From assembly GCA_000002445.1 (NCBI GenBank), contig CH464491.1:2112001-2176000 (forward strand): 64,000 nt of DNA. Reading direction: 5' to 3'. Both the position numbers and the translations under genes were made by a program. The notes under the pieces were generated by a model that saw only the letters and a program-made list of their open reading frames with translations, made no database searches and had not been told where the DNA came from. Of this stretch, positions 16,840 through 33,106 are shown piece after piece. Source of the DNA: Trypanosoma brucei. Its lineage: Eukaryota. Numbering within the stretch: position 1 is the first letter of the stretch; each line of letters begins with the position of its first letter.

Positions 16840-17625
16840 TTAGCCTCTATAAGAGCCCCGCCCCCTCCTCGCATTATGTTGCCTTCCTTCCCCCATTCCA
16901 GCGAAACCAGGGATTCCACCACTTTCTTGACGGTTGGAGTGAGTTGCACGACCCGCGGGTGGAAGGTTTTGCTGCGGCAATGGTCTCGGTTGTTGCTGCC
17001 GAATCTTGAAGGGCTGGGGCTCTTCGTTGAAGCGGTTCTGGATTGGGTTTTCGTGTCCCGTGCCAGAGTTCAAATTCCCATTCTTGTTATTGGGGTTGAA
17101 CACGCGCACACCACGCCGTTTGCCCGGTGAATCGCTCTCGCTGAAGCAAAGGAAGCGACTTTGAGTGTTGCCTTCGAATTTCTCACGCACTTCTTTGTCG
17201 CGCTGCGCCGCAGAATCGACAGGTCGTAGGCGCTGCAATTCAGCACAATCTCGCTCCCTCACCTCACGAGGATGGTTCAAAGTTGGTGCATCGGTGTTCC
17301 ACGAAAAAATATTCAGCCCACCTCGCGCAAGGCGGTCCTTTGACAGGCGCCGGGTATCCACCGCTTGTGTTTGGGCTTGCGGCTGCAAAGGTAAATCATA
17401 ACCTCCACCGTTCATATCGACGTGTTCGTATGCATCATGACCCCCGTAACCTGGTGGAGGCCCGTCCATGTACGACTGGGGGGCATCTCGGAGTAAATCC
17501 TCCTGACCGGCGTATGGGGACTCAAGGAAGGTCGGGTGCTTATCGTATGCATCTACATGCTGAGCCCGGCCCAATTCATCAGTGCGACCCCTCAGGTCAC
17601 TTTCATAGTCGTAGTTGGCAAGCAT
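16840..17625 (-). CDS. Hypothetical low-complexity or disordered protein with an RG-rich C-terminus.
   Basis: The 261-aa ORF is rich in P, Q, G and R and ends ...ARRGRGSYRG. It lies on the same strand as its neighbours. I recognise no domain. Confidence 0.35.
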   Translation of the reverse strand: MLANYDYESDLRGRTDELGRAQHVDAYDKHPTFLESPYAGQEDLLRDAPQSYMDGPPPGYGGHDAYEHVDMNGGGYDLPLQPQAQTQAVDTRRLSKDRLARGGLNIFSWNTDAPTLNHPREVRERDCAELQRLRPVDSAAQRDKEVREKFEGNTQSRFLCFSESDSPGKRRGVRVFNPNNKNGNLNSGTGHENPIQNRFNEEPQPFKIRQQQPRPLPQQNLPPAGRATHSNRQESGGIPGFAGMGEGRQHNARRGRGSYRG

Positions 17626-18569
17626 CTTGGTAATATAATATTTATATTATATTCTCTGCTCCAAAATAATATCACCTTTTGTCTTTATTATTCCTCACTT
17701 CTACTTGCTTCTCTTGTTTGCTCCTACCTGAGCTTTATTATGTCAAGGCGAGATTCAACGTAACTCTCTTCTAATAACCGATCGATGCGCGGCGATTTCT
17801 ACCTTACGTGAACAGTAAAGCTGAGTTATTTTTATTTTAAGAGCTTTCCACTGTTTCTATCGCTTACCTCTTAGTCACAATTCTTCAGGATGTTCTACTA
17901 TATCAGTGGCATTATAATGCAAGTGAAAAGCACACGATCAGAGACGTGAACACGTACGCACGTACAAAGAGCATAAAGTAAATGACATTGTCAAGTGATT
18001 ATTCCACTCACTCATCCGCCTTCACCACAATAATAAATTAATAACGGCGCCCACCACCCACAACTGGGACAGCCACTAAGAAACACAAAGCAAGGGAAAC
18101 CACATAACCTCACTTCCACAAAACAAAGCACGCGCACGTGCAACCCCGCCAACACGCTCACAGACAATTAGACTATAAAACGAGAAGGGGGAAAATTGCA
18201 GAAAAACAAACCAGAAGAAACAACCACAAATAAAAAGAAAAACAGTAGATAGCACCAGATAAAAGTAATCCTAAAAAATATATACATACACATACATGCT
18301 TTAAGACATGAAAATACTAAAGTAATACAAAAGTAAAAGCAAAAGTGCAAAAGTGTTTCGAAACCGATAAAAGTAAGATTGAAAACAATAATACATATAA
18401 AATTATTGAAAACATAAAAATAAGAACAAAACCCGGTCAAATTCAAAAAAAGCAAGAGCAACAAATTAATAAAAGAAGAAAATTTCAAGAAATTAAAAAT
18501 ATATATCAGAAAATCAGATAAATATTAAAGGCCGACAGCACTTAACAAGACTCTCAATAACATCCCGTT

Positions 18570-19477
18570 GACAACAAGAAATTTCATTGCAACCATAAAA
18601 TAGTCGCGCCTTCTTCACCACAGTTGGTGACTTTACAACCCATAAAGGGCCCTTACCGCGGATGCCAGATTTCTGTTGCACAAGCTTCAGACCCGTCATG
18701 ATATCAAAACCAAATCCAAGAGCATGAGCAATTTCATGTGCCGTCACGCGCATACTACTATCATGAGAAGTCAGCACTTCAGGTCCAATATTGAAAACAC
18801 CAACAGTAGGGCGATGATCCCTATACCTCGAACACGGACCTGCCCATGCTGCAGGTGAACCCATTGGACCAGCGGCACCATATAACACCATATCAGCATC
18901 GGAGACACCTGTAGTGCGGTGCTCCTGAGGAATGTTGAAGTATTTGCAAAATGTGTATACTTCAGGAACCTTTATTGGGCCTTGAACTGGTTGTACCATA
19001 AGGCGGTCGCTGTGCATCTTCAATGCATCCGGTATAACAACAGACAGAAGAGATTTCTTTTCTCTGTCAGCACGGAATCAGTTGTGCATTGTAGTACATG
19101 CCCCTAAAAATAGAGCGAGTCTGACCTTCCCTTTCACAATATTTCTTCGGGTCGTCAATATCCGATTTAAAAACCTGAAATCGAATGGGTTGCCATCCTG
19201 CCGTTGAACTCGTAACAATCGCATGCACCAGATCTCCTTTAGGTACTCGAGGCTCACCCACCACTGGAAGGTCCCGCATACTCATGTTTTTCATCAACTT
19301 GCCGAAGTCACACCGATGTGGTGGGATATTGCCTTCAGTCACATCACCACATAATATCAAACCCAATAAAAAGGGAATGACATAACGAGGGAACATAATC
19401 ACTGTCATATATACACACTCAAGCGTATCAATAGATATTTGCAAATCCTTTAAATACAGTTTGGATACCACATTCAT
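18570..19477 (-). pseudogene. GP63: GP63/leishmanolysin pseudogene: the N-terminal two thirds only, with a frameshift and a 3' truncation.
   Basis: Two ORF fragments, 19067..19477 and 18514..19023, are each near-identical to the intact copies and include HEIAHALGFGFDIM. Relative to copy 3 there is a 1-nt deletion near 19045 (cttttctctgtcag here versus cttttcctttgtcag in copy 3). Homology to intact copies stops near 18570, after the FYGCNEI region. The downstream ORF tail (SCCQRDVIESLVKCCRPLIFI) is junk. Confidence 0.8.
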
Positions 19478-20441
19478 ATAATAAAAAGAAATAGAAACAG
19501 AAATGTAAAGACATAGGAAATAAATATATATATAATAACAACAATATATTATTTGATTACTATCATTGTGAATGATGATAAAGGTGTGAAAACTCCATGC
19601 TCAAGTAAAGAGGGTTAGGAAAATAATACAAAAAAAAGGATCATGAGTGTCCAATGAGAGCAGCGCATCACACACGTGGGAATGATTTCGCCTTATAACA
19701 AGAAACAAATGAAAGGTTCATGCACATTAAATGAAAGAAACCAGTGAGAACACAGCACATGAAGGAATTACGTACATCAAAAGAAAAGCAAAGTACAAAG
19801 GAAAAAGAAAAAGATATATTCTTCAGATATGACAGTTACCGCTGTCGCAAGAGGAAAAAAAAGAAGAAAAAATAAAACAGAAGAATTGAACAAAGACATA
19901 ATATTCATTGATGAAAATTTATGATATGAAACATTAAACTGCTCTATCTACATCAAGCAGGAAACCATTTGATATTCCACACACATAAATTATTGTGATG
20001 TGCGCAACCGAAATGGAAAGATACGGAAGACAGTGCTGATATACATCAATACCGTCACCTCCAGGCAAAACAGTACCCAAAACATTATGTAGGTTTTCCA
20101 TTATTCATTTCAATATATCCACACAATTTCCAATTTAAGAGCAATAAAACAAACATTCAATATTTATGTATATATATATATATATATATGCTATCACTTT
20201 ACACTGGAACAGCAACAAGTGTCGTGTGATGTTGTCGTCAAAGAGATATGACGTGATAAATGACAGCGGTTCCCCATTCATAAAACAGCATGTTTGTACA
20301 TCATGTGAAAGAAAGAAAGATTGGTTAGTAATTCAACTGTTAATAAAGCACACCAAAACTCTCAACAAATGCCTGTGAAATCCAGCTAAGAAAGGCATCA
20401 TAAAGTAATTGCAGTAACAGTGCCGCTTACGCATAATATTA
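19478..20441. repeat. GP63 array inter-copy spacer unit, repeated at 23580..24485 and 26290..27218.
   Basis: The three spacers share long near-identical blocks by eye, for example aataacaacaatatattatttgattactatcatt, gggaatgatttcgccttataacaagaaacaaatgaaaggt and aaagcacaccaaaactctcaacaaatgcctgtgaaat. Each contains a short (TA)n. Confidence 0.85.
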
Positions 20442-22307
20442 TTATAGGGAAAAAGAAACGAAGAGTAGCATATTCCACATAAAATAACTTGAATGTACAG
20501 CCCATGATGCTGCACCTGTCCCGTGCTCTGTCTCTTCAGAATCCACTGGGGAAGGCGCTTCGGAAGATTCTTCTGAAGATTCTTCGGAAGATTCTGCAGA
20601 AGATCCTTCAGAAGATCCTTCGGAAGATCCTTCGGAGGATCCTTCGGAAGATCCTTCAGAAGATCCTTCGGATGCCACCGCCGAAGGGACGGTGACCCGC
20701 TTCAACACCTTCGAGGCACACAACTCAGACTTTTTAGGACACCGAACATAACCGCTGGAGAATGTCACATTAGATGTCACATTTCTTCCCTCGGGGCAAT
20801 CATACCATTGGTCGTCATCAACAAAACGCACCTGAAGAGTATCTGGTTCACAATTCACCTCAACACAAATATCAGCAATTGCAACTATAACGTTCTTCAG
20901 CTTGAGACCCGTAGCTTTCACACACCGTGAGTTAGGTCCAATGCGACTTCCCCACATTGCATGCGGATGACCATCAGTGCAGCCGGTATTGGAGAAGAGA
21001 CGTATGTAAGGGCAGAAATCAAGCAGTTCATTGGGGCCACCCTTATTGACACGAGAAAAGTACCGATATTGCTGGGGTATTGGAGTCCTGTATAAATAAA
21101 TGGCACATGATCCCAACCCACCCCTGTCGGCGGTACAAACATTTTCACCCTTCTTTGTCGCAGATGTACAAAACACATCAGGAAAGTTGCTCTTTCCACT
21201 CTCTATACGTGTGTGTTGCAGAAAATCACAGCCTCGTCCTTTACCAAAATGCATATCTTCTTCAGTTCCCCATCTGGCTTTGTAAAAACCCATATCCTCA
21301 AATAATGCCATAGTTAGCACACTATAACGGCCTCCATCGCTGCCTTTTATACCAGCCATCATCTCTTCCATTGCGATCCTACGCTCCCAATGCGATCTAA
21401 CCGTACCCCTGCCACCTTCATCCTCCAGTTCCACACCCGTGATATCATTGCAACCATAAAATTCCTGCGCTTTCTTTACCACAGTTTGTGACTTTACAAC
21501 CCATACAGGGCCCTTACCGCGGATGCCAGATTTGGATGCCACAAGCTTCCGCTCATTCATAATATCAAAACCAAATCCAAGAGCATGAGCAATTTCATGT
21601 GCCGTCACACGCATACTACTATCATGAGAAGTCAGCACTTCAGGTCCAATATTGAAAACACCAACAACAGGGCGTCCATCCCTCAACTTCGCACACGGAA
21701 CAGCCCATGCTGCAGGTGAACCCATTGGACCAGCGGCACCATATAACACCATATCAGCATCGGAGACACCTGTAGTGCGGTGTTCCCTGGGAATGTTAAA
21801 GTTTTTGCAAAACGATTGCTCCCTATGGACCGTGATTCGTCCCTTTACTGGTTGTACCATGAGGCGATCGCTGTGCATCTTCAGTGCATCTGGTATCACA
21901 GCATCCAAAAGAGATTTCTTCTGCGATGTCAGCAAGGATTCAGTTTTGCATTTGTAGTAGATGCCCCTAAAATTAGAGCGAGTTTCACCCACATTTCCAC
22001 AATATTTCTTCGGGTCCTCAATATCCGATTTAAAAACCTTAAATCGAATGGGTTGCCATCCTGCCATTGAACTCGTAACAATCGCATGCACCAGATCTCC
22101 TTTAGGTACTGGAGGCTCATCCACCACTGGAAGGTCCCGCATACTCATGTTTTTCATCAACTTGCCGAAGTCACACCGATGTGGTGGGATATTGCCTTCA
22201 GTCACATCACCACATAATATCAAACCCAATAAACAGGGAATGACATAACGAGGGAACATAATCACTGTCATATATACACACTCAAGCGTATCAATAGATA
22301 TTTGCAA
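20442..22307 (-). CDS. GP63: GP63/leishmanolysin (major surface protease, M8 zinc metalloprotease), copy 2, intact.
   Basis: The 621-aa ORF has the HEIAHALGFGFD zinc-binding HExxH motif, the conserved Cys pattern and a signal peptide (MFPRYVIPCLLGLILCG). It has a C-terminal (SEGSS)n tail and then a hydrophobic GPI-signal-like end (WNMLLFVSFSL). The ORF may start at a later Met; MQISIDTLECVYM precedes the signal peptide. Confidence 0.9.
   Translation of the reverse strand: MQISIDTLECVYMTVIMFPRYVIPCLLGLILCGDVTEGNIPPHRCDFGKLMKNMSMRDLPVVDEPPVPKGDLVHAIVTSSMAGWQPIRFKVFKSDIEDPKKYCGNVGETRSNFRGIYYKCKTESLLTSQKKSLLDAVIPDALKMHSDRLMVQPVKGRITVHREQSFCKNFNIPREHRTTGVSDADMVLYGAAGPMGSPAAWAVPCAKLRDGRPVVGVFNIGPEVLTSHDSSMRVTAHEIAHALGFGFDIMNERKLVASKSGIRGKGPVWVVKSQTVVKKAQEFYGCNDITGVELEDEGGRGTVRSHWERRIAMEEMMAGIKGSDGGRYSVLTMALFEDMGFYKARWGTEEDMHFGKGRGCDFLQHTRIESGKSNFPDVFCTSATKKGENVCTADRGGLGSCAIYLYRTPIPQQYRYFSRVNKGGPNELLDFCPYIRLFSNTGCTDGHPHAMWGSRIGPNSRCVKATGLKLKNVIVAIADICVEVNCEPDTLQVRFVDDDQWYDCPEGRNVTSNVTFSSGYVRCPKKSELCASKVLKRVTVPSAVASEGSSEGSSEGSSEGSSEGSSEGSSAESSEESSEESSEAPSPVDSEETEHGTGAASWAVHSSYFMWNMLLFVSFSL
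20563..20685 (-). repeat. A 15-bp tandem repeat inside GP63 copy 2 encoding (SEGSS)n.
   Basis: About 8 units of ggaagatccttc(a/g)ga with minor variants are seen directly on the + strand. They translate on the minus strand as SEGSSEGSSEGSS...AESSEESSEESSE. Confidence 0.9.
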
Positions 22308-23000
22308 TTCCTTAACTTACAGGATAGAAACTACATACATAGAATAAGAAAAGGAAATAGAAATAGGAATGCAAAGCCATAGGAAGATATGTAAGGTCAG
22401 AGTTAGAAATGTAACAACACACAAAATATTAATTTGTGTGTTACTGATAATGCAACCGAAGTTGTACTCAAGCATGAAAAAATAGGCATAATACTGCACA
22501 GTAACCGCATCTCAAAATACAGCACATGCGTGTGTATAGGATATATAACCTGCTGTCGCATCAGTACGCAATGGTGTCAATCAAACAATACTATCAGAGG
22601 TATCGGAGTGATTGCGGTTGTTGAACATCACGCACAACAGACATAGTTACCACATATTGTAAAAGGGAAGGAATCAACAAGGGAAAAGGAGAGGAATATG
22701 GGAAAGGGAAAGGGAAGGAAATGAATGTTGTCAGACAGGGATAACTGTTAGCAGTCGTTACTCGTCAATGTTAAATCAGAAGAGGTGTCAGGTAAACGTG
22801 TCTTCTCATCATAAGGTACAAGATTTCATTATGCGAGCACTTCCATAGAGACCTCTCTGTAACTCATGGTTGGGACTCGATAATCCAAAAATAACAACAA
22901 ACACAGATGTATCGCTACAAGTTAACTCTCTCTTAAAGGATATATTTATATATTATTACTAATTTTAGTATACCATACAGTATGATAACTAAATAAACAT
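22308..23000. repeat. GP63 5'-flank unit, repeated at 29118..29810.
   Basis: The two blocks are near-identical over about 690 bp, from the GP63 start codon outward. Identity ends abruptly after ...gataactaaataaa(a)cata (22981..23001 and about 29802..29822). Confidence 0.85.
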
Positions 23001-23336
23001 AGTTTCTGTAGAGAAAGTATAGGACGCATAACCATCCGTTACAGGATCCCACAACCCCCTGGAGGCAATTCTTATTCCCTGATTTACGGCCTCAGTGACG
23101 GTGGCATGAGTAACAAATTTATAACGCTCATATCCCAGGCGCACAACACGCTGCTGAATCTCACTACATATTTCTTTTATTAGTGGTTGTACATCCTCAT
23201 GCACATACGCCCGATCCCCAACGAGTGTTTGGCACACCTTTTTCAAAATGGGCTCAACGGCACTCGCTCGGAATTTAGTTCCGGGACGCGGCAGCTTAAT
23301 GGCAGGGCGCGGGGCTTCATCGTACTCGTTCACCAT
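22989..23336 (-). CDS. DYNLT: Tctex1-family dynein light chain; the C-terminus appears short relative to the family.
   Basis: The 115-aa ORF aligns to human DYNLT1 over its C-terminal half. YKFVTHATVTEAVNQGIRIASRGLWDPVTDGYASYTFSTETMFI matches [45 protein letters not shown]. Our protein stops about 9 aa before the usual end (...IVSAFGLSI). Confidence 0.7.
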   Translation of the reverse strand: MVNEYDEAPRPAIKLPRPGTKFRASAVEPILKKVCQTLVGDRAYVHEDVQPLIKEICSEIQQRVVRLGYERYKFVTHATVTEAVNQGIRIASRGLWDPVTDGYASYTFSTETMFI

Positions 23337-24485
23337 CAGCTACGTTTGACTTCCACTTCTTTCCTCTTCTTCTTTTCTCTTGTTTTGTCCCGGGTGCTCG
23401 TGTGGATACGCGTAGACGCCTTTCTTATTTCTTCCTAAAGGCAAACAAATTGGTTAATATTCTAAACGATCACGAGCACAGATCAGTAAACACCTACACG
23501 AGGAGTATACTTCGATTTTAGAAACGAACAGAAAAGCAAAAGCAATGGCAAAAAAGAATACCAAACGAAGAAATGGAACATCATATGAATATATATAATA
23601 ACAACAATATATTATTTGATTACTATCATTACGTTAGGTAAAAGATTTATGCACTCCATGCTCAAGTAAAAGAGGGTTAGGAAAATAATACAAAAAAAGG
23701 ATCATGAGAGTCCAATGAGAGCAGCGCATCACACACGTGGGAATGATTTCGCCTTATAACAAGAAACAAATGAAAGGTTCATGCACATTATATGAAAGAA
23801 ACCAGTGAGAACACAACACACCAAGAAATTACGTACATGAAAAGAAAAACAAAGTAGAAAGATAGAAGAAAGAGATATTATTCAGATATGGCTGTAACCA
23901 CTGTCGCAAGGGGAAAATAAGAGAAGAAAAAATATAAGAAAACTATTCAACAAAGACATAATATAGGCTGATAAAATTTATGATATGAAAGGTTAAGCTG
24001 CTCTATCTACATCAAGCAGACACCCATTTGATATTCCACACACATAAATTGTAGTAACGTGCGCAACCGAAATGGAAAGATACGGAAGACAGTGCTGCTG
24101 TATACAATACCGTCACCACAAGGCAAAGCAGTAACAGAAATACATTTTTCCAGCTATTCTTTCTCTCGTTTCAGCGTATCCACACAATTTCCAATTTAAG
24201 AACAAGAAAACAAACATCCAATATATATATATATATGTTATCACTTTACACTGCAACAGCAACAAGTGTCGTGTGATGTTGTCGTAAAAGAGATATGATT
24301 TGATAAACGACACCAGCTCCCCATTCATGAAACAGCGTGTTTGTACATCATATGAAAGAAGGAAAGATTGCTTAGTAATTCAAGTGTTAATAAAGCACAT
24401 CAAAACTCTCAACAAATGCCTGTGAAATTCAGTAAAGAAAGGTATCATAAAGTAATTGCAGTAAGAGTGCCGCTTATGCATCATA

Positions 24486-26207
24486 TTATAATAGGGAAAA
24501 GCAAGAAACGAAGAGTAGCATATTCCACATTAAATAACATGAATATGCTGACCATGATGACGCGCCCTTTCCTTGTCCCTTTTGTGCCGAAGTGGTTTGC
24601 TTTACCACCTTTGAAGCACACAACTCAGACTTTTTAGGACACTGAATAGAACCGCTGGAGAATGTCACATTAGATGTCACATTTCTTCCCTCAGGGCAAT
24701 TATGCCATTGGTCGTCACCAACAAAACGCACCTGAAGAATATCTGGCTTACAATTCACTTCAACACAAATATCAGCCATTGCAACTATAACGTTTTTCAG
24801 CTTTAGACCCGTAGCTTTGACACACCGCGAGTTAGGTCCAATACGACTTCCCCACATTGTCTTCGGATCTCCATTAGTGCAGCCGGTATTCGAGAAGACA
24901 CGTATGTAAGGGCAGTAATCAAGCAGTTCACCGGGACCACCCCTGTTGCTCTGAGAAAAGTACTGGTAATGCGTAGGTAGTGAGGACTTATAAGTAGAAA
25001 TTGCACACGACCCCAGCCCAGTACGGTCAGATGTACAAATATTCTCACCTTGCTTTGTTTCCGACGTACAAAACACATCAGGAAAGTTGCTCTTTCCATC
25101 CTCTACACACCTCTTTTCCAGAAAATCACAGCCTCGTCCTTTACCAAAATGCATATCCTCTTCAGTTCCCCATTTGGCTTTGTAAAAACCCATATCCTCA
25201 AATAATGCCATAGTTAGCACACTATAACGGCCTCCATCGCTGCTTTTCAAACCAGCCATCATCTCTTCCATTGCGATCCTACGCTCCCAATGTGATTTTA
25301 CAGTTCCCTCACCACCTTCATCCTCCAGCTCCATACCTGTCAACGTATCACAACCATAAAATAGTCGCGCTTTCTTCACCACAGTTTGTGACTTTACAAC
25401 CCATACACCATTCTTACCACGGATCTCATTCCTCTTTTCCACAAGCTTCAGCTCCTCCATGATATCAAAACCAAATCCAAGAGCATGAGCAATTTCATGT
25501 GCCGTCACACGCATACTACTATCATGAGAAGTCAGCACTTCAGGTCCAATATTGAAAACACCAACAACAGGGCGCTTTCCCTTGAGCCTCGAACACGGAC
25601 CTGCCCATGCTGCAGGTGAACCCATTGGACCAGCGGCACCATATAACACCATATCAGCACCGGAAACACCTGTAGTGTAGTGATCCTGAGGAATATTGAA
25701 ATTATTGCAAAACGACTGCAGTTTAGGAACCTTAATTGGGCCCTGAACTGGTTGTACCATGAGGCGATCAGTGTGCATCTTCAGTGCATCCGGTATAACA
25801 ACAGACAGAAGAGATTTCTTTTCCTTTGTCAGCAAGGAATCAGTATTACACTGATAATTGGTACCCCTAAAGTTAGAGCGAGTTTCACCCACACTTCCAC
25901 AATATTTACTCCGATCCTCAATATCCGATTTAAAAACCTTAAATCGAATGGGTTGCCATCCTGCCGTTGAACTCGTAACAATCGCATGCACCAGATCTCC
26001 TTTAGGTACTGGAGGCTCACCCACCACTGGAAGGTCCCGCATACTCATGTTTTTCATCAACTTGCCGAAGTCACACCGATGCGGTGGGATATTGCCTTCA
26101 GTCACATCACCACATAATATCAAACCCAATAAAAAGGGAATGATATAACGAGGGAACATAATCACTGTCATATATACACACTGAAGCGTATCAATAGGTA
26201 TTTGCAA
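24486..26207 (-). CDS. GP63: GP63/leishmanolysin, copy 3, intact, with the shortest C-terminal tail.
   Basis: The 573-aa ORF has HEIAHALGFGFDIM and the same architecture as the other copies. It lacks an SEGSS tail and ends ...TTSAQKGQGKGASSWSAYSCYLMWNMLLFVSCFSLL. Confidence 0.9.
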   Translation of the reverse strand: MQIPIDTLQCVYMTVIMFPRYIIPFLLGLILCGDVTEGNIPPHRCDFGKLMKNMSMRDLPVVGEPPVPKGDLVHAIVTSSTAGWQPIRFKVFKSDIEDRSKYCGSVGETRSNFRGTNYQCNTDSLLTKEKKSLLSVVIPDALKMHTDRLMVQPVQGPIKVPKLQSFCNNFNIPQDHYTTGVSGADMVLYGAAGPMGSPAAWAGPCSRLKGKRPVVGVFNIGPEVLTSHDSSMRVTAHEIAHALGFGFDIMEELKLVEKRNEIRGKNGVWVVKSQTVVKKARLFYGCDTLTGMELEDEGGEGTVKSHWERRIAMEEMMAGLKSSDGGRYSVLTMALFEDMGFYKAKWGTEEDMHFGKGRGCDFLEKRCVEDGKSNFPDVFCTSETKQGENICTSDRTGLGSCAISTYKSSLPTHYQYFSQSNRGGPGELLDYCPYIRVFSNTGCTNGDPKTMWGSRIGPNSRCVKATGLKLKNVIVAMADICVEVNCKPDILQVRFVGDDQWHNCPEGRNVTSNVTFSSGSIQCPKKSELCASKVVKQTTSAQKGQGKGASSWSAYSCYLMWNMLLFVSCFSLL

Positions 26208-27218
26208 ATCCTTAACTTATAGGACAGAAACTACATACATAGAATAAGAAAAGGAAATAGAAATAGGAATGCAAAGCCATAGGAAACATATATATATATA
26301 TATATATAATAACAACAATATATTATTTGATTACTATCATTACGTTAGGTAAAAGATTTATGCACACCATGCTCAAGTAAAAGAGAGTTAGGACAATAAA
26401 ACAAAAAAAGTGGATCATGAGGGTCCAATGGGAGCAGCGCATCACACACGTGGGAATGATTTCGCCTTATAACAAGAAACAAATGAAAGGTACATGCACA
26501 TTATATGAAAGAAACCAGTGAGAATACAGCACATGAAGGAATTACATACATGAAAAGAAAAGCAAAAACAAAGTAGAAAGAGATAGCAAACAAGGAGATG
26601 TTCTTCAGATATAGATATTACACTGCACCAACGAAGAAAAAGAAAGAAGGCAAAAAAATAAAACAGAAGAATTGAACAAAGAAGAGAATATTGATTGGTA
26701 AAGATTATGATATGAAAGGTTAAGCTGCTCTATCTATATCAAGCAGACAACCATTTGATATTCCACACACATAAATTATAGTAACGTGCGCAACCGAAAC
26801 GGAAAGAGACAGAAAAACAATGTTGCTGTATAACAATACCGTCACCACAAGGCAAAGCAGTAACAGAAATACATTTTTCCAGCTATTCTTTCTCTTGTTT
26901 CAGTATCCCCGAACAATTTCCAATTTAAGAGCAAGAAAACAAACATCCAATATATTTATTTATATATATGTTATCACTTTACACTCCAACAGCAACAAGT
27001 GTCGTGTGATGTTGTCGTAAAAGAGATATGATGTGATAAACGACACTGGCTCCCCATTCATAAAACAGCATGTTTGTACACCATGTGAAAGAAGGAAAGA
27101 TTGCTTAGTAATTCAAGTGTTAATAAAGCACATCAAAACTCTCAACAAATGCCTGTGAAATTCAGTTAAGAAAGGTATCATAAAGTAATTGCACTAACAG
27201 CGCCGTATATGCATCATA

Positions 27219-29117
27219 TTATAATAGGGAAAAGCAAGAAACGAAGAGTAGCATATTCCACATTAAATAACTTGAATATGCTGACCATGATGATGTACCC
27301 GTCAACTGTCGCGTCATTGGGGAGGACCCCTCGGAATCCTCATGGGAAGACTCTTCAGAATATTCTTCGGAAAAATCTTCAGAAGCCCCCGTAGAAGACG
27401 TCGGAGATGCCCCTTCATAAGTTTCTGCGAAAGGCGCTGCGAAAGGTCCTGTTGAAGGCCCTGGAGAGGTAACTGGGAAGGCAACTGCGGAGGGGACTGT
27501 GATCCGCCTCAGAATCTTCGAGGCACACAACTCAGACTTTTCAGGACACTGAATAGAACCGCTGGAGAATGTCACATTAGATGTCACATTTCTTCCCTCA
27601 GGGCAATCATACCAACGGTTATCACCAACAAAACGCACCTGAAGAATATCTGACTCACAATTCACTTCAACACATATATCTGCAAGAGGAACACCTTTTT
27701 TTTTTTGAAGTCTAAGCCGAGTTCCTTTGACACACCGTGAGTTAGGTCCAACACGACTTCCCAGCATTACGTTCGGATTTCCATCAGTGCAACCGGTATT
27801 CGAAAAGAGGCGTATGTAAGGGCAGTAATCAAGCAGTTCAGCGGGACCACCTTTCTTTTCGTCAGCAAAATATCGATATTGCTCAGGTATTGGAGACTCA
27901 TGTGTCTGAATGGCACATGACCCCAACCCACCACGATCAGATGTACAAAAGATCTCAGTGTCCCTGGCCTTTGACGTACAAAACACATCAGGAAAGTTGC
28001 TCCTTCCATTCTCTACACACCTCTTTTCCAGAAAATCGCAGCCTCGTCCTTTACCAAAATGCATATCTTCTTCATTTCCCCATTTGGCTCTATAAAAACC
28101 CATATCCTCAAATAATGCCATAGTTAGCACACTATAACGGCCTCCATCGCTGCTTTTCAAACCAGTCATCATCTCTTCCATTGCAATCCTACGCTCCCAA
28201 TGTGAGTTTTTCGTACCGTCACCACCTTCGTCCTCCAGCTCCACACCCTTAATTTCATTACAACCATAAAATTCCTGCGCCTTCTTTACCACAGTTGGTG
28301 ATGTCACAACCCATACATCATTCTTACCACGGATGCCAGATTTCTTTTCCACAAGCTTCAGTTCCTCCATGATATCAAAACCAAATCCAAGAGCATGAGC
28401 AATTTCATGTGCCGTCACACGCATACTACTATCATGAGAGGTCAGCACTTCAGGTCCAATATTGAAAACACCAACAGTAGGGCGTTGACCACTTACCCTC
28501 GAACACGGACCTGCCCATGCTGCAGGTGAACCCATTGGACCAGCGGCACCATATAACACCATATCAGCACCGGAGACACCTGTAGTGTAGTGGTCTCTGG
28601 GAATGCTGAAGTTATTGCAAAATGTTTGTTTTTCATAAACCTTAATTGGGTCGTGAACTGGTTGTACCATGAGACGATCAGTGTGCATCTTCAATGCATC
28701 CGGTATAACAACAGCCAGAAGAGCTTTCTTTTCCTTTGTCAGCACAGAAGCAGTTGTACACTCGTAGTATGCGTCCCTGAAGTTAGAGCGAACTTGGCCT
28801 TCCTTTTCGCAATATTTGTTCCGGTTTTTAATGTCAAAGTCAAACACCTGAACTCGGATGGGATGCCATCCTGCCGTTGAACTCGTAGCAATCGCATGCA
28901 CCAGATCTCCTTTAGGTACTGGAGGTTCATCCACCACTGGAGGTTCCCGCACACTCATGTTTTTCATCAACTTACCGAAGTCACACCGATGCGGTGGGAT
29001 ATTGCCTTCACTCACATCACCACATAATATCAAACCCAATAAAAAGGGAATGATATAACGAGGGAACATAATCACTGCCATATATACACACTCAAGCGTA
29101 TCAATAGATATTTGCAA
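27219..29117 (-). CDS. GP63: GP63/leishmanolysin, copy 4, intact, with a distinct Ser/Pro/Glu-rich C-terminal tail.
   Basis: The 632-aa ORF has HEIAHALGFGFDIM. Its unique tail is ...PSAVAFPVTSPGPSTGPFAAPFAETYEGASPTSSTGASEDFSEEYSEESSHEDSEGSS, followed by a GPI-signal-like end. There is a T11 homopolymer at 27696..27706 on the + strand (A11 on the coding strand), encoding KKK at a point where the other copies read NVIV. Confidence 0.9.
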   Translation of the reverse strand: MQISIDTLECVYMAVIMFPRYIIPFLLGLILCGDVSEGNIPPHRCDFGKLMKNMSVREPPVVDEPPVPKGDLVHAIATSSTAGWHPIRVQVFDFDIKNRNKYCEKEGQVRSNFRDAYYECTTASVLTKEKKALLAVVIPDALKMHTDRLMVQPVHDPIKVYEKQTFCNNFSIPRDHYTTGVSGADMVLYGAAGPMGSPAAWAGPCSRVSGQRPTVGVFNIGPEVLTSHDSSMRVTAHEIAHALGFGFDIMEELKLVEKKSGIRGKNDVWVVTSPTVVKKAQEFYGCNEIKGVELEDEGGDGTKNSHWERRIAMEEMMTGLKSSDGGRYSVLTMALFEDMGFYRAKWGNEEDMHFGKGRGCDFLEKRCVENGRSNFPDVFCTSKARDTEIFCTSDRGGLGSCAIQTHESPIPEQYRYFADEKKGGPAELLDYCPYIRLFSNTGCTDGNPNVMLGSRVGPNSRCVKGTRLRLQKKKGVPLADICVEVNCESDILQVRFVGDNRWYDCPEGRNVTSNVTFSSGSIQCPEKSELCASKILRRITVPSAVAFPVTSPGPSTGPFAAPFAETYEGASPTSSTGASEDFSEEYSEESSHEDSEGSSPMTRQLTGTSSWSAYSSYLMWNMLLFVSCFSLL

Positions 29118-30463
29118 TTCCTTAACTTACAGGATAGAAACTACATACATAGAATAAGAAAAGAAAATAGGAATAGGAATGCAAAGCCATAGGAAGATAT
29201 GTAAGGTCAGAGTTAGAAATGTAACAACACACAAAATATTAGTGTGTGTGTGTTACTGATAATGCAACCAAAGTTATACTCAAGCATGAAAAAATAGGCA
29301 TAATACTGCACAGTAACCGCATCTCAAAATACAGCACATGCGTGTATATAGGATATATAACCTGCTGTCGCATCAGTACGCAATGGTGTCAATCAAACAA
29401 TGCTATCAGAGGTATCGGAGTGATTGCGGTTGTTGAACATCACGCACAACAGACATAGTTACCACATATTGTAAAAGGGAAGGAATCAACAAGGGGAAGG
29501 GAGAGGAATATGGGAAAAGGAAAGGGAAAGGGAAGGAAATGAATGTTGTCAGGCAGGGATAACTGTTAGCAGTTTTTACTCGTCAATGTTAAATCAGAAG
29601 AGGTGTCAGGAAAACGTGTCTTCTCATTATAAGGTATAAGATTGCATTATGCGAACACTTCCATAGAGACCTCTCTGTAACTCATGGTTGGGACTCGATA
29701 ATCCAAAAATAACAACAAACACAAATGTATCGCTATAAGTTAACTCTCTCTTAAAGGATATATTTATATATTATTACTAATTTTAGTATACCATACAGTA
29801 TGATAACTAAATAAAACATAACGAGAAGTGAATCAACCCTCCTTTACATCGAAACACCTTACGAAACAAGTATCTCGTTAGAAAACCGTAACGTGTCCGC
29901 AGCATGCTAAACGTCGCAGCAACTGTATTTGATATCATGCGAGAAACTGGAAATATGTTGTAAAAGAGAAAGAAAGGGAGAGAAAGCATGAAGAGTGAGG
30001 ACGGGACAGAAGAACTGAGAATGGTTGTCGAGCAGTAGTGACAGAGTTAGAACGCAGGGTCCTTTTGTGGTGAACTGCTCCTGTGTTCAGGAACCCAACT
30101 GCAGAGCACGCAGGTAACCCCTATTTTAGACACCGTGCGTCACATACATTATTAATCGGTCTTGTGGTGGAAAAGTAATGCCTGACTGGCGTTAGCGAAT
30201 ACGAGGGTTTCGGCTGCGTATATCGGCACTGACACGTCACAACGTGCTGATAGTGCTTCACCTTTTATCATGGCGGGTTACTTAACTTTAAAGCAGGGAT
30301 GTAGTACGGTCACCTCCCCATTGTGTAAACCTAAACCTCCTTACTCCCATTGTGGCTATGTAGTTTGCAAACAGACTTGTTGATTTTCCATTTCTTCTTC
30401 TTAGCCTTTTGACGTGGTGCTGTCAACTGGTTGAGCAGATTCGATGTAATTCACGCCCTCGTC

Positions 30464-33106
30464 CTACCAAGGTATTTCCCTAAAATCCTTGAAGAACTTT
30501 CCATATACTTTGCGATCACTATAAATGAGATCTAAGCACCGAGCAGCGGCATCGACCTCGTCCAAAGGACACAGCTGATGCTGGTCTGCGCGTCGCTCCT
30601 TTTTGGCCTTTGGTGATTCATCTGTAATCCAACCCGTGTCTACGGAGTTCATATAAATTCCATCTTGAGCATAATCCTCACCACTAGTTCTCGTCATCAT
30701 ATTGAGAGCCGCCTTTGCCATGTTTGTGTGAGGATGTGTCACCTGCTTGAACCGGTAGAACTGTCCTTCCATAGCGGAAACGTTGATGATGAAGCGTGCC
30801 TCATCCGTCACCGGATCACCAGTACGGTTTAGGAGTGCGGGTTTAAGCTTACTGTTGATGATAAAGGGTGAGAGAGCATTTATGGCCATAACCTCTGCTG
30901 CTTCGCTGCCTTGCACCTCTGCCAGTTTCATAACCCACGAGTTCGTCACGCGGTGGTCGCTCTCCTCAGCAGCCGTGTCGTAACGATCAAAAACAGAAGA
31001 TTTTGAGGAACCCACAACAAGAGGTGATCTCGCGATAGCAACCAGAACACCGCTGTGACCAGTTGCGTTGGTGTTATAGTAGGCCGTAGCGTCACCTGTG
31101 GTAATCCTCTCGTCCAGAAAAGGTTGCCGCTGAGGGTGATGTTCAATATGCAGCGGCTCTCCAATCGTTACCGACGAGTGACTAAGAAAATACTGGTGCC
31201 ACTCCCTGGATGCCGCGTCGTCGTATAGTGTCTTGTGCAGGTCTAGAGGGGGATGCGATTCCACATGCCGTAAATGCTTCGTGTACTCCCTCGTTCGCGC
31301 GATTGTCTGCGCAGCGTTGTTGATTATCGCAAATAACTTCCCAAACTTCTGCATTACAAAGGCACAGAACTGAGTGACCAGCCACATGTCACGCAGGTCC
31401 AGCGAAAAGAGATGAAGCCGGTGCGCCCACACACAGTAGTCCGCCTCTCTTTGAAACCGTGCCACTGCCTCATGAGCAAAGCGAGTGGTGCCTATTAATT
31501 CCGCACCACACCTCAGAAGGGAAAGTGCCATGGCAAAGCCGATTTTAATGCGGCAACCCGTAAGCAGCACAACCTTTCCCCGCAAATCCCGAGTCATCAA
31601 ACGCTTGTTGAAGTTATACTCACCACACAAGTGGCACATACTGTAATAATACGGGTGCAACTTATCATACCGCACACGACAGGTGTGGCATGCAATGGTT
31701 CGACTAAGCTGCAGTGCTTCATCACAAGGTATAGGACGACCGGCCGCATACTGTTGTATATCTTGGAAGACAGAAAAACTGTCGGGTTCCTCATCATCCG
31801 ACACCGGTGGCCGTGTTGGAAAATCGGAAGGTGACTCCCCCAATTCACGGTAACGTCGCTTACTGTACAACCTACGAGCTATAAATAAGTTGAGGGACGC
31901 ATCAACTGACCACTGAACACCGCTTCCATTTCCACCTGCCTTTGCGTCAGGGCTGGTGAGCGTGCCAACACTGTCGTTGGTCACGAACAGATCAATTGGT
32001 TCCCCCCGACTAACTGCACGTTCAAACACGTGAAGGGCATCTGTTACGGGAAGGTTATGTTTTAATGCCTTTACCACATCAACAGATGCACGATCCAACG
32101 TACCGCAATTACGGAGGCAGGTAAGGTCTCGCATTGCCCCTGAATCGGCCACAACTATGTCCTCATCAGAAGGAATACCGCTCACGAGTTCACCAGCTTT
32201 TTTCCCCCCACAATCACGATTATTGCTGCCCCCACTGATGCCATTCATGTTTTCGTCATCATTGTCATCGTCTCCCCCAAGCGTGAAGAGTTCACCGCAG
32301 AGTCTTGCAATCCGAAGCTTTATCGTTGCTGTATACATCTCCTGCTGCAACAAATCAGTTCCCGGTGGTGCGGAACCACCAATAAGAACGGGGGGCATTT
32401 GCGTCCCAAACGAATGCGGTAAGTAGCGGTAAACCTGAGCCACAAGATGTGAGGCAGTAGCCCAATCCATCGCAGCGGAACCCGCAGTGTACATTGCTTC
32501 AAGACGTATAATATTCTCAAACGCACCAATTTGTGATATTATCTGACGATCGTGGGTGGACAAGCCGTCATGGCAATCCTCACTCCTTCTAGCACCTTGC
32601 CCGTCAACGGTATCCGCAGGGCCGCTCACACGGTCACGAATAAGCGACACAACCCGATCAGATCCCTCATTTTCCTGGTGCTGAAGGAGACAGAGAGCCT
32701 CCTCCCTTTCACGCTTCATTTCGGTGCGACGAATCGCTTCAATGTCTTGCATACGTTTATAACGCTTACGATAACTCTTCTCCTCATTCATAATGGCCTT
32801 GTACACGTCACGGTTCTCACGCTTTGTCTTGCGGTCTCGTGTAATCATCGTGTACAGTCTGCTCTCGTGCAGGTACGGATCCCCGACAAAAAGTGATGGA
32901 TCGTGAAAAAGGGTACGAACAACTTTTGTTGCAGCATGAAGCTCATCCAATGTAAACCCCCAACGCGCCTCACGTGCCGCTAACGTCATTTCCTCTCCTG
33001 CCACCTCCTGTGGTAAAGACTTTCCCTCATCCCCGTCACTCATTGAGTCAACCTCCGGGGACGGTTTACCACCGATTACCTTGCGATATTCAACAAGCAA
33101 AACCAA
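30464..33106 (-). CDS. Large protein with a C-terminal short-chain dehydrogenase/reductase (SDR)-like domain.
   Basis: The 880-aa ORF contains KVVLLTGCRIKIGFAMALSLL, a Rossmann TGxxxGxG-type motif. Downstream lies NNAAQT and a ...MAKAALNMMTRT... region resembling the SDR YxxxK segment (Tyr not conserved). A C-x2-C...C-x2-C cluster (CHTCRVRYDKLHPYYYSMCHLCGEY) precedes the SDR part. Confidence 0.55.
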   Translation of the reverse strand: MVLLVEYRKVIGGKPSPEVDSMSDGDEGKSLPQEVAGEEMTLAAREARWGFTLDELHAATKVVRTLFHDPSLFVGDPYLHESRLYTMITRDRKTKRENRDVYKAIMNEEKSYRKRYKRMQDIEAIRRTEMKREREEALCLLQHQENEGSDRVVSLIRDRVSGPADTVDGQGARRSEDCHDGLSTHDRQIISQIGAFENIIRLEAMYTAGSAAMDWATASHLVAQVYRYLPHSFGTQMPPVLIGGSAPPGTDLLQQEMYTATIKLRIARLCGELFTLGGDDDNDDENMNGISGGSNNRDCGGKKAGELVSGIPSDEDIVVADSGAMRDLTCLRNCGTLDRASVDVVKALKHNLPVTDALHVFERAVSRGEPIDLFVTNDSVGTLTSPDAKAGGNGSGVQWSVDASLNLFIARRLYSKRRYRELGESPSDFPTRPPVSDDEEPDSFSVFQDIQQYAAGRPIPCDEALQLSRTIACHTCRVRYDKLHPYYYSMCHLCGEYNFNKRLMTRDLRGKVVLLTGCRIKIGFAMALSLLRCGAELIGTTRFAHEAVARFQREADYCVWAHRLHLFSLDLRDMWLVTQFCAFVMQKFGKLFAIINNAAQTIARTREYTKHLRHVESHPPLDLHKTLYDDAASREWHQYFLSHSSVTIGEPLHIEHHPQRQPFLDERITTGDATAYYNTNATGHSGVLVAIARSPLVVGSSKSSVFDRYDTAAEESDHRVTNSWVMKLAEVQGSEAAEVMAINALSPFIINSKLKPALLNRTGDPVTDEARFIINVSAMEGQFYRFKQVTHPHTNMAKAALNMMTRTSGEDYAQDGIYMNSVDTGWITDESPKAKKERRADQHQLCPLDEVDAAARCLDLIYSDRKVYGKFFKDFREIPW

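What the first reader, a model, noticed from the sequence alone, without database searches (positions are those of the whole stretch)
22981..23336. A Tctex-type dynein light chain gene embedded in the GP63 array, ending exactly at a repeat junction without the conserved terminal beta-strand
The 115-aa ORF aligns well to Tctex1 through ...WDPVTDGYASYTFSTETMF. It then terminates (MFI-stop) about 9 residues before the family's conserved C-terminal strand (...YCIVSAFGLSI in human DYNLT1). That strand is the one swapped in the Tctex dimer. The last three codons, the stop and the following about 340 bp of 3' sequence belong to the block duplicated upstream of GP63 copy 4 (29470..29822). Identity between the two blocks stops within one codon of this point (22998..23001). 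So the array duplication breakpoint sits inside, or at, the 3' end of this gene. One reading is that the native C-terminus was replaced during array expansion, leaving a truncated or chimeric and possibly non-functional light chain. The other reading is that this lineage's Tctex is naturally short and the breakpoint copied its last codons to the copy-4 flank.
Basis: partly seen in the sequence, partly recalled or inferred. Interest (0 to 1): 0.6.

Follow-up and report, generated by a model that had tools for sequence, protein, structure and literature searches.

The report
Truncated dynein light chain at GP63 junction
This Trypanosoma brucei copy of the outer-arm dynein light chain LC2 lost its last beta-strand where a duplicated GP63 flank was joined onto codon 113, so it is a rearrangement casualty rather than a naturally short protein, though an intact copy elsewhere in the genome is not excluded.

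Summary
A 115-aa Tctex-family ORF lies at 22989..23336 (-). It ends MFI-stop exactly where a ~0.7-kb block, repeated upstream of another GP63 copy, begins.

Thirteen orthologs, from T. vivax and T. cruzi to Leishmania and bodonids, are 112-126 aa and end ...MHVNVVLYALYWE. Only T. brucei (TREU927, equiperdum IVM-t1) stops at Met113+FI. So the short end is derived, not family-typical.

The gene is the ortholog of Leishmania outer-arm dynein LC2 (PDB 9y6s chain 6g).

The ancestral order, seen on one T. vivax contig, is 880aa-GP63-LC2-S11-LSM-P27-...-510aa-485aa-GP63 fragment-261aa. The window lacks all nine genes S11..485aa. It reads 880aa-block-GP63-GP63-LC2'-block-GP63-GP63 fragment-261aa. That fits recombination, or assembly collapse, between two old GP63 sites.

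AlphaFold folds the T. vivax protein (pLDDT 76) but not the truncated one (pLDDT 51).

The T. brucei axoneme structure 9e5c contains a paralog, not this protein.

Unresolved: whether an intact LC2 survives next to S11 in T. brucei. Every assembly I could reach breaks there. Moderate interest.

The parts
22989..23336 (-). LC2' ORF, 115 aa. Tctex-family, T. brucei ortholog of outer-arm dynein light chain LC2. Identical to XP_828849.1 and very probably Tb927.11.7740.
   Evidence: ORF. Pfam. Exact identity to EAN79737.1/XP_828849.1 of TREU927 chromosome 11. Orthologs. PDB ortholog 9y6s_6g. Identifier inferred from accession arithmetic (XP_828562.1 = Tb927.11.4870) and from Godar 2022.
22998..23336 (-). 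Codons 1-113: the part that is homologous to LC2 of other kinetoplastids. It is 87% identical to T. vivax and has no frameshift or internal stop.
   Evidence: Alignment. Codon comparison.
22995..23001 (-). Junction J2: TATGTTT is shared by the LC2' copy and the array-leading block copies. Microhomology is at least ATG. The T-run has 3 T here and 4 T in the other block copies.
   Evidence: TREU927, IVM-t1, gambiense and OVI copies side by side.
22308..22997 (-). Block copy 1: supplies F114, I115, the stop codon and the 3' flank of LC2', and is also the 5' flank of GP63-C. The distal ~610 nt are shared only with block copy 2. The proximal ~80 nt are shared by all GP63 copies.
29118..29820 (-). 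Block copy 2: 5' flank of the first GP63 (A), downstream of the 880-aa gene. In IVM-t1 a third copy extends 215 nt further, to the equivalent of 30037.
23337..23583 (-). Unique 5' flank of LC2'. It lies between the end of the GP63 3' spacer repeat and the ATG.
   Evidence: Repeat families D7 and D10-D12 end at 23583. Alignment with IVM-t1.
27219..29117 (-). GP63 copy A (Peptidase_M8), upstream of LC2' in the direction of transcription.
24486..26207 (-). GP63 copy B, immediately upstream of LC2'.
20442..22307 (-). GP63 copy C, immediately downstream of LC2' and block copy 1.
18514..19477 (-). GP63-D': a 5' fragment (about aa 1-285) with a frame break. Homology to GP63 ends near 18580. A degenerate GP63 fragment sits at the same place, upstream of the 261-aa ortholog, in T. 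vivax.
   Evidence: T. vivax L018:6421-7071.
30464..33106 (-). 880-aa adh_short-domain gene, the conserved upstream neighbour of the GP63-LC2 pair.
16840..17625 (-). 261-aa gene. In T. vivax its ortholog lies nine genes downstream of LC2. Here it follows GP63-D' directly.

Best explanation
What it is. The ORF is the T. brucei copy of the outer-arm dynein light chain LC2, a Tctex2-type protein. Its Leishmania ortholog, LtaP28.1020, is built into the 24-nm outer-arm repeat of the axoneme.

Ancestral state. In the ancestor of trypanosomes the gene was 125 aa and ended ...MHVNVVLYALYWE. It lay between a GP63 gene and the ribosomal protein S11 gene.

What happened (inferred). In the T. brucei lineage a duplication started in the 5' flank of the first GP63 and ended inside LC2 at Met113. 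It was probably joined through an ATG/TATG microhomology. The junction fused codons 1-113 to GP63 5'-flank DNA. That DNA supplies Phe-Ile-stop and a new 3' flank.

Consequence. The product lacks strand beta4, one of the three strands of each monomer's own sheet. It is therefore predicted not to fold or pair like a Tctex light chain. It is most likely a non-functional, or at least non-axonemal, by-product of GP63 array expansion.

Wider context. Recombination between two old GP63 sites, one upstream of LC2 and one upstream of the 261-aa gene, then shaped the region. In this assembly the nine genes S11..485aa between those sites are absent.

Shown versus inferred. Shown: the truncation relative to all orthologs, the coincidence with the repeat boundary, the synteny break, and the ancestral gene order. 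Inferred: the order and mechanism of events, loss of function, and replacement by the paralog Tb927.9.12820 in the outer arm.
For: Truncation is derived.
- Thirteen orthologs of 112-126 aa all end HVNVVLYALYWE-like. Only the two T. brucei sequences stop at M113+FI.
- T. vivax LC2 aligns end to end with L. tarentolae 9y6s_6g and with Chlamydomonas LC2 7kzm_F.

Breakpoint.
- Block identity starts at F114/M113.
- The distal block is otherwise found only as the 5' flank of the first GP63.

Synteny.
- Upstream genes (188aa, 442aa, 880aa) are conserved with T. vivax and Leishmania.
- Downstream of LC2, S11-LSM-P27 follow in T. vivax, T. cruzi, T. melophagium and Leishmania. They are absent from the window.
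- One T. vivax contig carries LC2...510aa-485aa-GP63 fragment-261aa-974aa orthologs in one direction.
- IVM-t1 keeps S11..485aa and then has [215 nt + block-GP63-LC2'-block-GP63-D']-261aa.

Fold.
- With comparable shallow alignments (15 and 14 sequences), AlphaFold2 gives pLDDT 76.5 / pTM 0.71 and a helix-helix-beta1-4 fold for T. vivax. It gives pLDDT 50.9 / pTM 0.42 with no sheet for the 115-aa protein.
- Beta4 is part of the monomer's own sheet (PMC5834530).

Function.
- The T. brucei 96-nm repeat structure 9e5c holds Tctex folds 5p and 5y only. Chain 5p has 4 copies and is the ortholog of L. tarentolae LtaP35.2930, i.e. Tb927.9.12820. The LC2 ortholog is not in the model.
- In L. tarentolae the LC2 ortholog is present in 4 copies and is listed as outer-arm LC2.
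- Godar et al. report that Tb927.11.7740 is not strongly ciliary in TrypTag.
- About 9-10 lineage-specific amino-acid changes lie on the T. brucei branch against about 3 in T. vivax.
Against: - The first 113 codons are intact in two alleles that differ by 2-3% in the flanks. They differ by 3 non-synonymous and 3 synonymous changes (dN/dS about 0.3). This does not show decay.
- Just after the junction, in the frame set by the 4-T version of the block, the sequence reads MFYLVIILYGIL. IILYGI resembles the native VVLYAL. It ranks among the top four of 128,000 six-frame positions with a 6-residue profile. This hints that the block might begin with native LC2 3' sequence.
- The parent copy expected next to S11 after a duplication cannot be inspected. 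A preprint table lists a second T. brucei identifier, Tb927.11.7707, for this orthogroup.
- Absence from 9e5c may reflect modelling from an incomplete proteome.
- The TrypTag statement is second-hand.
- The assignment to Tb927.11.7740 rests on accession arithmetic.
Confidence: 0.6

Rival explanations
1. Harmless partial duplicate. The 115-aa gene is only the truncated extra copy made by a segmental duplication. The real T. brucei chromosome still carries an intact 125-aa LC2 directly upstream of S11. The reference assembly shown in the window has collapsed, or represents a deletion haplotype of, the ~20 kb between the two GP63 sites. This agrees with the best explanation on how this copy arose. 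It differs on whether the organism has lost LC2.
For: - A tandem duplication ending inside LC2 should leave an intact distal copy.
- S11..485aa exist in T. brucei: on the IVM-t1 contig, and as P27 = Tb11.0300 and Tb11.0400, which carry old-style identifiers rather than Tb927.11.x ones in the two papers read, so I infer they are not placed on the main chromosome.
- Every assembly reached breaks at the repeats. IVM-t1 starts inside S11, OVI ends in the block, and gambiense has an N-gap.
- A second identifier, Tb927.11.7707, is listed with 7740.
Against: - No T. brucei LC2-like protein other than the 115-aa form is in a 5.8-billion-cluster protein collection. That collection does hold the neighbouring Tb11.0300/0400 proteins.
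- Godar et al. found only two Tctex-type hits in T. brucei.
- The LC2 ortholog is not in the T. brucei axoneme model 9e5c.
Confidence: 0.35
2. In-place decay. The block downstream of Met113 is the native LC2 3' end and 3' UTR. A one-T deletion in a T-run, plus older indels, destroyed the last strand. This LC2 3' flank, already joined to a GP63, was later copied to the head of the array.
For: - All four array-leading block copies have 4 T and then read MFYLVIILYGILKL... in frame with the ATG. Both LC2' copies have 3 T.
- IILYGI and VVIFGL are the top hits of a 6-mer profile of ortholog C-termini.
- The best local DNA match of the block to the Leishmania slice falls on the C-terminal coding stretch of LC2.
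Against: - Profiles of 8, 10 and 12 residues do not rank these peptides.
- The DNA alignment scores are within the range of control intergenic regions and shuffles.
- VVIFGL lies in a GT-rich polypyrimidine tract.
- The change from 87% identity to no recognisable identity is abrupt at one codon. That fits a breakpoint better than decay of 12 codons next to 113 well-kept ones.
- The scenario needs more rearrangement steps.
Confidence: 0.12
3. Functional short form. T. brucei uses the 115-aa protein as it is, in a dynein or in another role, without strand beta4.
For: - The ORF is intact in two diverged alleles with dN/dS about 0.3.
- Most T. brucei-specific substitutions are conservative.
Against: - Loss of a core sheet strand.
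- The AlphaFold model loses the sheet.
- The protein is not in 9e5c.
- It is reported as not strongly ciliary.
- Six differences are too few to show selection.
Confidence: 0.1

Closest known systems
Leishmania tarentolae outer-arm dynein light chain LC2 (LtaP28.1020; PDB 9y6s chain 6g; L. mexicana LmxM.28.0950)
   Same: Ortholog. HMMER E 3.6e-44 against the 115-aa query, with about 65% identity to another Leishmania (Mundinia) ortholog. The upstream neighbours are the same (188aa, 411/442aa, adh_short gene).
   Different: The Leishmania protein keeps ...MHVTVAVFGVYWE. It is followed by S11 and is modelled in four copies per 96-nm repeat. The T. brucei copy stops at M113+FI, is followed by GP63 flank DNA, and is absent from the T. 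brucei model.
Chlamydomonas reinhardtii outer-arm LC2 (PDB 7kzm chain F) and inner-arm Tctex2b (8glv chain AS)
   Same: Same Tctex fold and similar sequence (E 1e-14 to 1e-17). Full-length trypanosomatid LC2 shares the terminal ...LY[WY]E with Chlamydomonas LC2.
   Different: The T. brucei copy lacks that end. Sequence scores alone do not separate LC2 from Tctex2b. The LC2 assignment rests on the Leishmania structure table.
TbLC2, Tb927.9.12820 (PDB 9e5c chain 5p)
   Same: Tctex-type light chain of T. brucei, axonemal, 124 aa.
   Different: It is a paralog, about 27% identical. It is orthologous to L. tarentolae LtaP35.2930, which is placed in inner-arm dynein f, and it keeps the full C-terminal strand. 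It appears four times in the T. brucei model, where Leishmania has the ortholog of the present gene.
Partial gene copies at breakpoints of tandem or segmental duplications
   Same: A gene cut at a duplication junction acquires a few foreign codons and an early stop. The junction carries short microhomology.
   Different: Here the cut gene is a conserved single-copy axonemal component, and the partner intact copy has not been seen.

Membership tests
Tctex-1 family (Pfam PF03645) | Profile match above the curated cut-off | tested here: met
   87.1 bits against a cut-off of 22.8, E 1e-24.
Tctex-1 family (Pfam PF03645) | Complete domain, including the C-terminal strand beta4 | tested here: not met
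   Only profile positions 2-90 of 95 are matched. Twelve native residues are replaced by FI. Beta4 is residues 113-123 in the T. vivax model.
Tctex-1 family (Pfam PF03645) | Helix-helix-beta1-beta2-beta3-beta4 fold | tested here: inconclusive
   AlphaFold2 gives pLDDT 50.9 and no sheet for the 115-aa protein, against 76.5 and the canonical fold for T. vivax. A prediction is not a stability measurement.
Tctex-1 family (Pfam PF03645) | Strand-swapped (beta2) dimer that binds an intermediate chain | not testable with these tools
   Needs biochemistry. The dimer topology is taken from PMC5834530.
Outer-arm dynein LC2 orthogroup of kinetoplastids | Closest similarity to LC2 orthologs, and conserved upstream synteny | tested here: met
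   85% identity to T. vivax. Best PDB hit is 9y6s_6g. The 188aa-442aa-880aa-GP63 neighbours are conserved upstream.
Outer-arm dynein LC2 orthogroup of kinetoplastids | S11 gene immediately downstream | tested here: not met
   S11, LSM and P27 are absent from the window. The GP63 flank follows instead.
Outer-arm dynein LC2 orthogroup of kinetoplastids | C-terminal ...[FY][AG][LV]YWE | tested here: not met
Outer-arm dynein LC2 orthogroup of kinetoplastids | Physical presence in the outer dynein arm | tested here: not met
   No identical or near-identical chain in T. brucei 9e5c. The Leishmania ortholog is present in 9y6s. Absence from a model is weak evidence.
Decayed pseudogene | Frameshifts or stops within the retained homologous part | tested here: not met
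   Codons 1-113 are open in TREU927 and IVM-t1.

The most novel reading that the evidence does not exclude
T. brucei has lost its ancestral outer-arm dynein light chain LC2. The loss came from a GP63-array rearrangement that cut off the last beta-strand. The outer arm now uses the Tctex2b-type paralog Tb927.9.12820, published as 'TbLC2', at that site. The protein called TbLC2 would then not be the ortholog of LC2. The outer-arm light-chain set would differ between T. brucei and Leishmania because of a surface-protease gene expansion.
Probability: 0.3. Interest if true: 0.6.

Novelty: new member of a known kind. Interest (0 to 1): 0.4.

Why it matters
The gene is annotated simply as 'dynein light chain, putative'. 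It has been treated as a possible Tctex-type light chain of T. brucei.

If it is a truncated by-product, three things follow.
- Orthology tables that equate it with Leishmania or Chlamydomonas LC2 mislead functional work.
- The name TbLC2 is attached to a paralog.
- T. brucei and Leishmania outer arms may differ in a light chain, which is relevant to their different beat regulation.

The locus also shows how expansion of a surface-protease family can damage a conserved housekeeping neighbour. It further suggests that the reference chromosome 11 sequence lacks about nine genes at this place, either as a deletion haplotype or as an assembly collapse.

Tried and rejected
- Remnant of the native C-terminus elsewhere in the window: tblastn and pattern searches found none.
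- Non-coding alignment of the block with T. vivax, T. cruzi, T. melophagium and Leishmania flanks, to decide which block copy is native: scores were no better than controls.
- T. congolense: no LC2-like protein came back. The contig carrying P27 starts only 1.2 kb upstream of it. The 974-aa ortholog is not on record.
- T. brucei sequence upstream of S11: the IVM-t1 contig begins inside S11. Look-ups of Tb11.0300 and of the window's own protein found nothing on record. T. b. gambiense has an N-gap in the array and T. equiperdum OVI ends in the block.
- Tb927.11.7707: no paper mentions it. No second Tctex-like sequence lies in the two intergenic regions where the numbering would place it.
- The T. 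brucei axoneme paper (PMC12165780) is not held, so the basis for assigning chain 5p could not be read.
- dN/dS between species: synonymous sites are saturated.
- A weak tblastn hit at 60348-60512 turned out to lie in a Tc-38 (p38) gene, not a Tctex domain.
- Chromosome 4/8 duplicon idea: dropped, because the locus is on chromosome 11.

Full report
**The feature.** The minus strand carries a 115-aa ORF at 22989..23336. It matches Pfam Tctex-1 at 87 bits, but only over profile positions 2-90 of 95. Its sequence is identical to XP_828849.1/EAN79737.1, 'dynein light chain, putative', on a 5.26-Mb T. b. brucei TREU927 record, which I take to be chromosome 11 from its size and from the Tb11/Tb927.11 identifiers of neighbouring genes. 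XP_828562.1 is Tb927.11.4870, and the present protein is 287 accessions later. Godar et al. found only Tb927.9.12820 and Tb927.11.7740 as LC2-like proteins. From these two points the gene is very probably Tb927.11.7740. That assignment is an inference.

**The repeat junction.** Window 22250..22997 aligns with 29060..~29820 at 93-95% identity, then similarity collapses. Read on the coding strand, the LC2' copy is ...GAA ACT ATG TTT ATT TAG TTATC.... The copy upstream of GP63-A is ...CTCGTTATGTTTTATTTAGTTATC.... The two share TATGTTT apart from one extra T. F114, I115, the stop and the whole 3' flank therefore belong to the block. Homology to the other copy ends at 23001. The same junction is present in T. 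b. equiperdum IVM-t1, whose allele differs by 6 of 345 coding positions and by 2-3% in the flanks. Array-leading copies from TREU927, IVM-t1, T. b. gambiense and T. equiperdum OVI all have four T. Both LC2' copies have three.

**Is the short end natural?** No. Thirteen orthologs are 112-126 aa and end MHVNVVLYALYWE or a close variant. They come from T. vivax, T. grayi, T. rangeli, T. cruzi, T. melophagium, Leishmania (Mundinia) and several unnamed sequences at 60-66% identity that I take to be other kinetoplastids (bodonid-like). Only the two T. brucei sequences end TMFI. T. vivax LC2 aligns end to end with L. tarentolae chain 9y6s_6g and with Chlamydomonas LC2, which ends ...YGLYYE. No remnant of the missing strand is detectable elsewhere in the window.

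**What the protein is.**
- The best solved relative is 9y6s_6g from the L. tarentolae 96-nm axonemal repeat (E 3.6e-44, four chains).
- The accompanying preprint lists LtaP28.1020/LmxM.28.0950 as outer-arm LC2 with 24-nm periodicity. Its T. brucei counterparts are given as Tb927.11.7707/Tb927.11.7740/Tb927.9.12820. The L. mexicana deletion swims slowly (PMC12637542).
- The T. brucei 96-nm repeat structure 9e5c holds two Tctex folds, 5p and 5y.
- Chain 5p has 124 aa and four chains. It is clearly the ortholog of L. tarentolae 9y6s_9M (LtaP35.2930, equated with Tb927.9.12820), not of the present gene.
- So the LC2 ortholog is built into the Leishmania model but not into the T. brucei model.
- Godar et al. 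state that Tb927.11.7740 is not strongly ciliary in TrypTag.

**The missing strand.**
- In the Tctex fold the topology is helix A, helix B, beta1, (beta2'), beta3, beta4. Beta1-beta3-beta4 form each monomer's own sheet, and beta2 crosses to the partner (PMC5834530).
- The lost segment is beta4, residues 113-123 in the T. vivax model. It is not the swapped strand.
- With comparable shallow alignments (15 and 14 sequences), AlphaFold2 gives T. vivax LC2 pLDDT 76.5 and pTM 0.71 with the canonical fold.
- It gives the 115-aa protein pLDDT 50.9 and pTM 0.42, with the sheet region modelled as helix or coil.
- This supports the expectation that the truncated chain cannot adopt the family fold. It does not prove it.

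**Gene order.**
- Upstream synteny is conserved: 188aa, 442aa and the 880-aa adh_short gene.
- A GP63 gene between the 880-aa gene and LC2 is present in T. vivax and T. melophagium. GP63 genes also lie upstream of LC2 in T. cruzi. None is present in Leishmania. GP63-LC2 adjacency is therefore old in trypanosomes.
- Downstream of LC2 every other species has S11, an LSM-domain gene and P27. The window has none of them.
- One T. vivax contig (L001 plus L018, 5.8 kb apart) carries, in one direction: 875aa, GP63, LC2, S11, LSM, P27, 300aa, helicase, [gap], 510aa, 485aa, a degenerate GP63 5' fragment, then the orthologs of the window's 261aa, 974aa, 610aa, ATP-grasp and WD40 genes.
- The GP63 fragment upstream of the 261-aa gene (window 18514..19477) is therefore also ancestral.
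- IVM-t1 keeps S11(3' end)-LSM-P27-300aa-helicase-PPR-S10-510aa-485aa. It then has [215 nt + block]-GP63-LC2'-block-GP63-D'-261aa.
- The window reads 880aa-block-GP63A-GP63B-LC2'-block-GP63C-GP63-D'-261aa. It lacks all nine genes S11..485aa.
- These genes do exist in TREU927. P27 is Tb11.0300 and Tb11.0400, which differ by one residue and carry old-style identifiers rather than Tb927.11.x ones in the two papers read, so I infer they are not placed on the main chromosome.
- The window is thus either a deletion haplotype or an assembly collapse between two GP63 sites in direct orientation.

**Most likely history (inferred).**
- A duplication started at the distal end of the first GP63's 5' flank and ended at LC2 codon 113. 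It was joined at ATG/TATG microhomology and created LC2'-block.
- Recombination among GP63 copies at the two ancestral sites then produced the present arrangements and copy-number differences. TREU927 has two plus two GP63 copies. IVM-t1 has one plus one.
- Such a duplication should initially leave an intact LC2 next to S11.
- Whether that copy survives could not be determined. IVM-t1 starts inside S11, OVI ends in the block, gambiense has an N-gap, and TREU927 gene positions are not indexed.
- Against survival: no other T. brucei LC2-like protein is in the protein collection, and 9e5c lacks it.
- For survival: the logic of duplication, the systematic assembly breaks, and the unexplained identifier Tb927.11.7707.

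**A rival for the origin of the sequence after Met113.**
- In the 4-T block copies the frame continuing from ATG reads MFYLVIILYGILKLVIIYKYIL-stop.
- IILYGI resembles VVLYAL. A second peptide, VVIFGL, lies ~95 nt further on. Together they are the four best hits of a 6-residue profile among 128,000 six-frame positions.
- This could mean that the block begins with decayed native LC2 3' sequence.
- However, longer profiles do not rank them. DNA alignment scores do not exceed controls. VVIFGL lies in a GT-rich polypyrimidine tract.
- The abrupt change from 87% identity to none at one codon fits a breakpoint better. I give this rival about 0.12.

**State of the retained part.** Codons 1-113 are open in both alleles. 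They differ by 3 non-synonymous and 3 synonymous changes. Polarised with T. cruzi and T. melophagium, the T. brucei branch carries about 9-10 amino-acid changes against about 3 in T. vivax. This is compatible with relaxed constraint, but the numbers are small. Synonymous sites between species are saturated.

**Verdict.** The feature is a truncated chimeric copy of a known gene, made by a known kind of process. Its interest lies in the possible loss and replacement of outer-arm LC2 in T. brucei, and in the evidence that the reference sequence is missing about nine genes here.

Noticed in passing
window 17626-30463, compared with L001/L018 (T. vivax) and L009/L003 (T. b. equiperdum IVM-t1): The TREU927 sequence lacks nine genes that lie between LC2 and the 261-aa gene in T. 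vivax and IVM-t1: S11, LSM, P27, 300aa, helicase, PPR, S10, 510aa and 485aa. P27 of TREU927 exists as Tb11.0300 and Tb11.0400, which I infer are not placed on the main chromosome. This is either a deletion haplotype or an assembly collapse between two GP63 sites.
   Followed up: partly
window 18514-19477; L018:6421-7071: The truncated GP63 fragment upstream of the 261-aa gene has a degenerate counterpart at the same position in T. vivax, with the HExxH motif lost. The fragment is therefore old. In T. brucei it is 85-90% identical to the live copies, which suggests gene conversion.
   Followed up: partly
L003/L009 against L014: The IVM-t1 contig differs from TREU927 by about 3%, by substitutions, across the 261aa-974aa region. 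T. equiperdum OVI is 99.3% identical to TREU927 in the 880-aa region. It is not clear whether IVM-t1 shows a diverged haplotype or a paralogous copy.
   Followed up: no
L013:19008-19107 (T. b. gambiense DAL972 chromosome 11): The gambiense assembly has a 100-N gap between GP63-A and the GP63-D' fragment. The LC2' region is not assembled there.
   Followed up: no
PDB 9e5c chain 5p against 9y6s chains 6g and 9M: The Tctex2-type chain present in four copies is Tb927.9.12820-like in the T. brucei model. In the L. tarentolae model the four-copy chain is the LC2 ortholog, and the Tb927.9.12820 ortholog is assigned, by elimination, to inner-arm dynein f.
   Followed up: partly
window 59274-61046 (-): A 590-aa ORF with an N-terminal Tc-38 (p38) domain (E 8.5e-33). 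A weak tblastn similarity to Tctex proteins inside it is spurious.
   Followed up: yes
window 20442-20700 and 27219-27500 (-): GP63-C carries a (SSEG)n-type serine/glutamate repeat near its C-terminus. GP63-A has a different acidic, serine-rich tail, and GP63-B lacks both. The four copies are not equivalent.
   Followed up: no
window 22700-22745 and 29510-29560: A purine-rich GGGAAA/GGAAA microsatellite inside the block differs by a 6-nt indel between the two copies.
   Followed up: no
T. congolense: No LC2-like protein of T. congolense IL3000 was returned, although its P27 (TcIL3000_11_8230) and 974-aa ortholog (TcIL3000_11_8200) are in the collection and are numbered only three genes apart. 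LC2 may be missing or unassembled there too.
   Followed up: no
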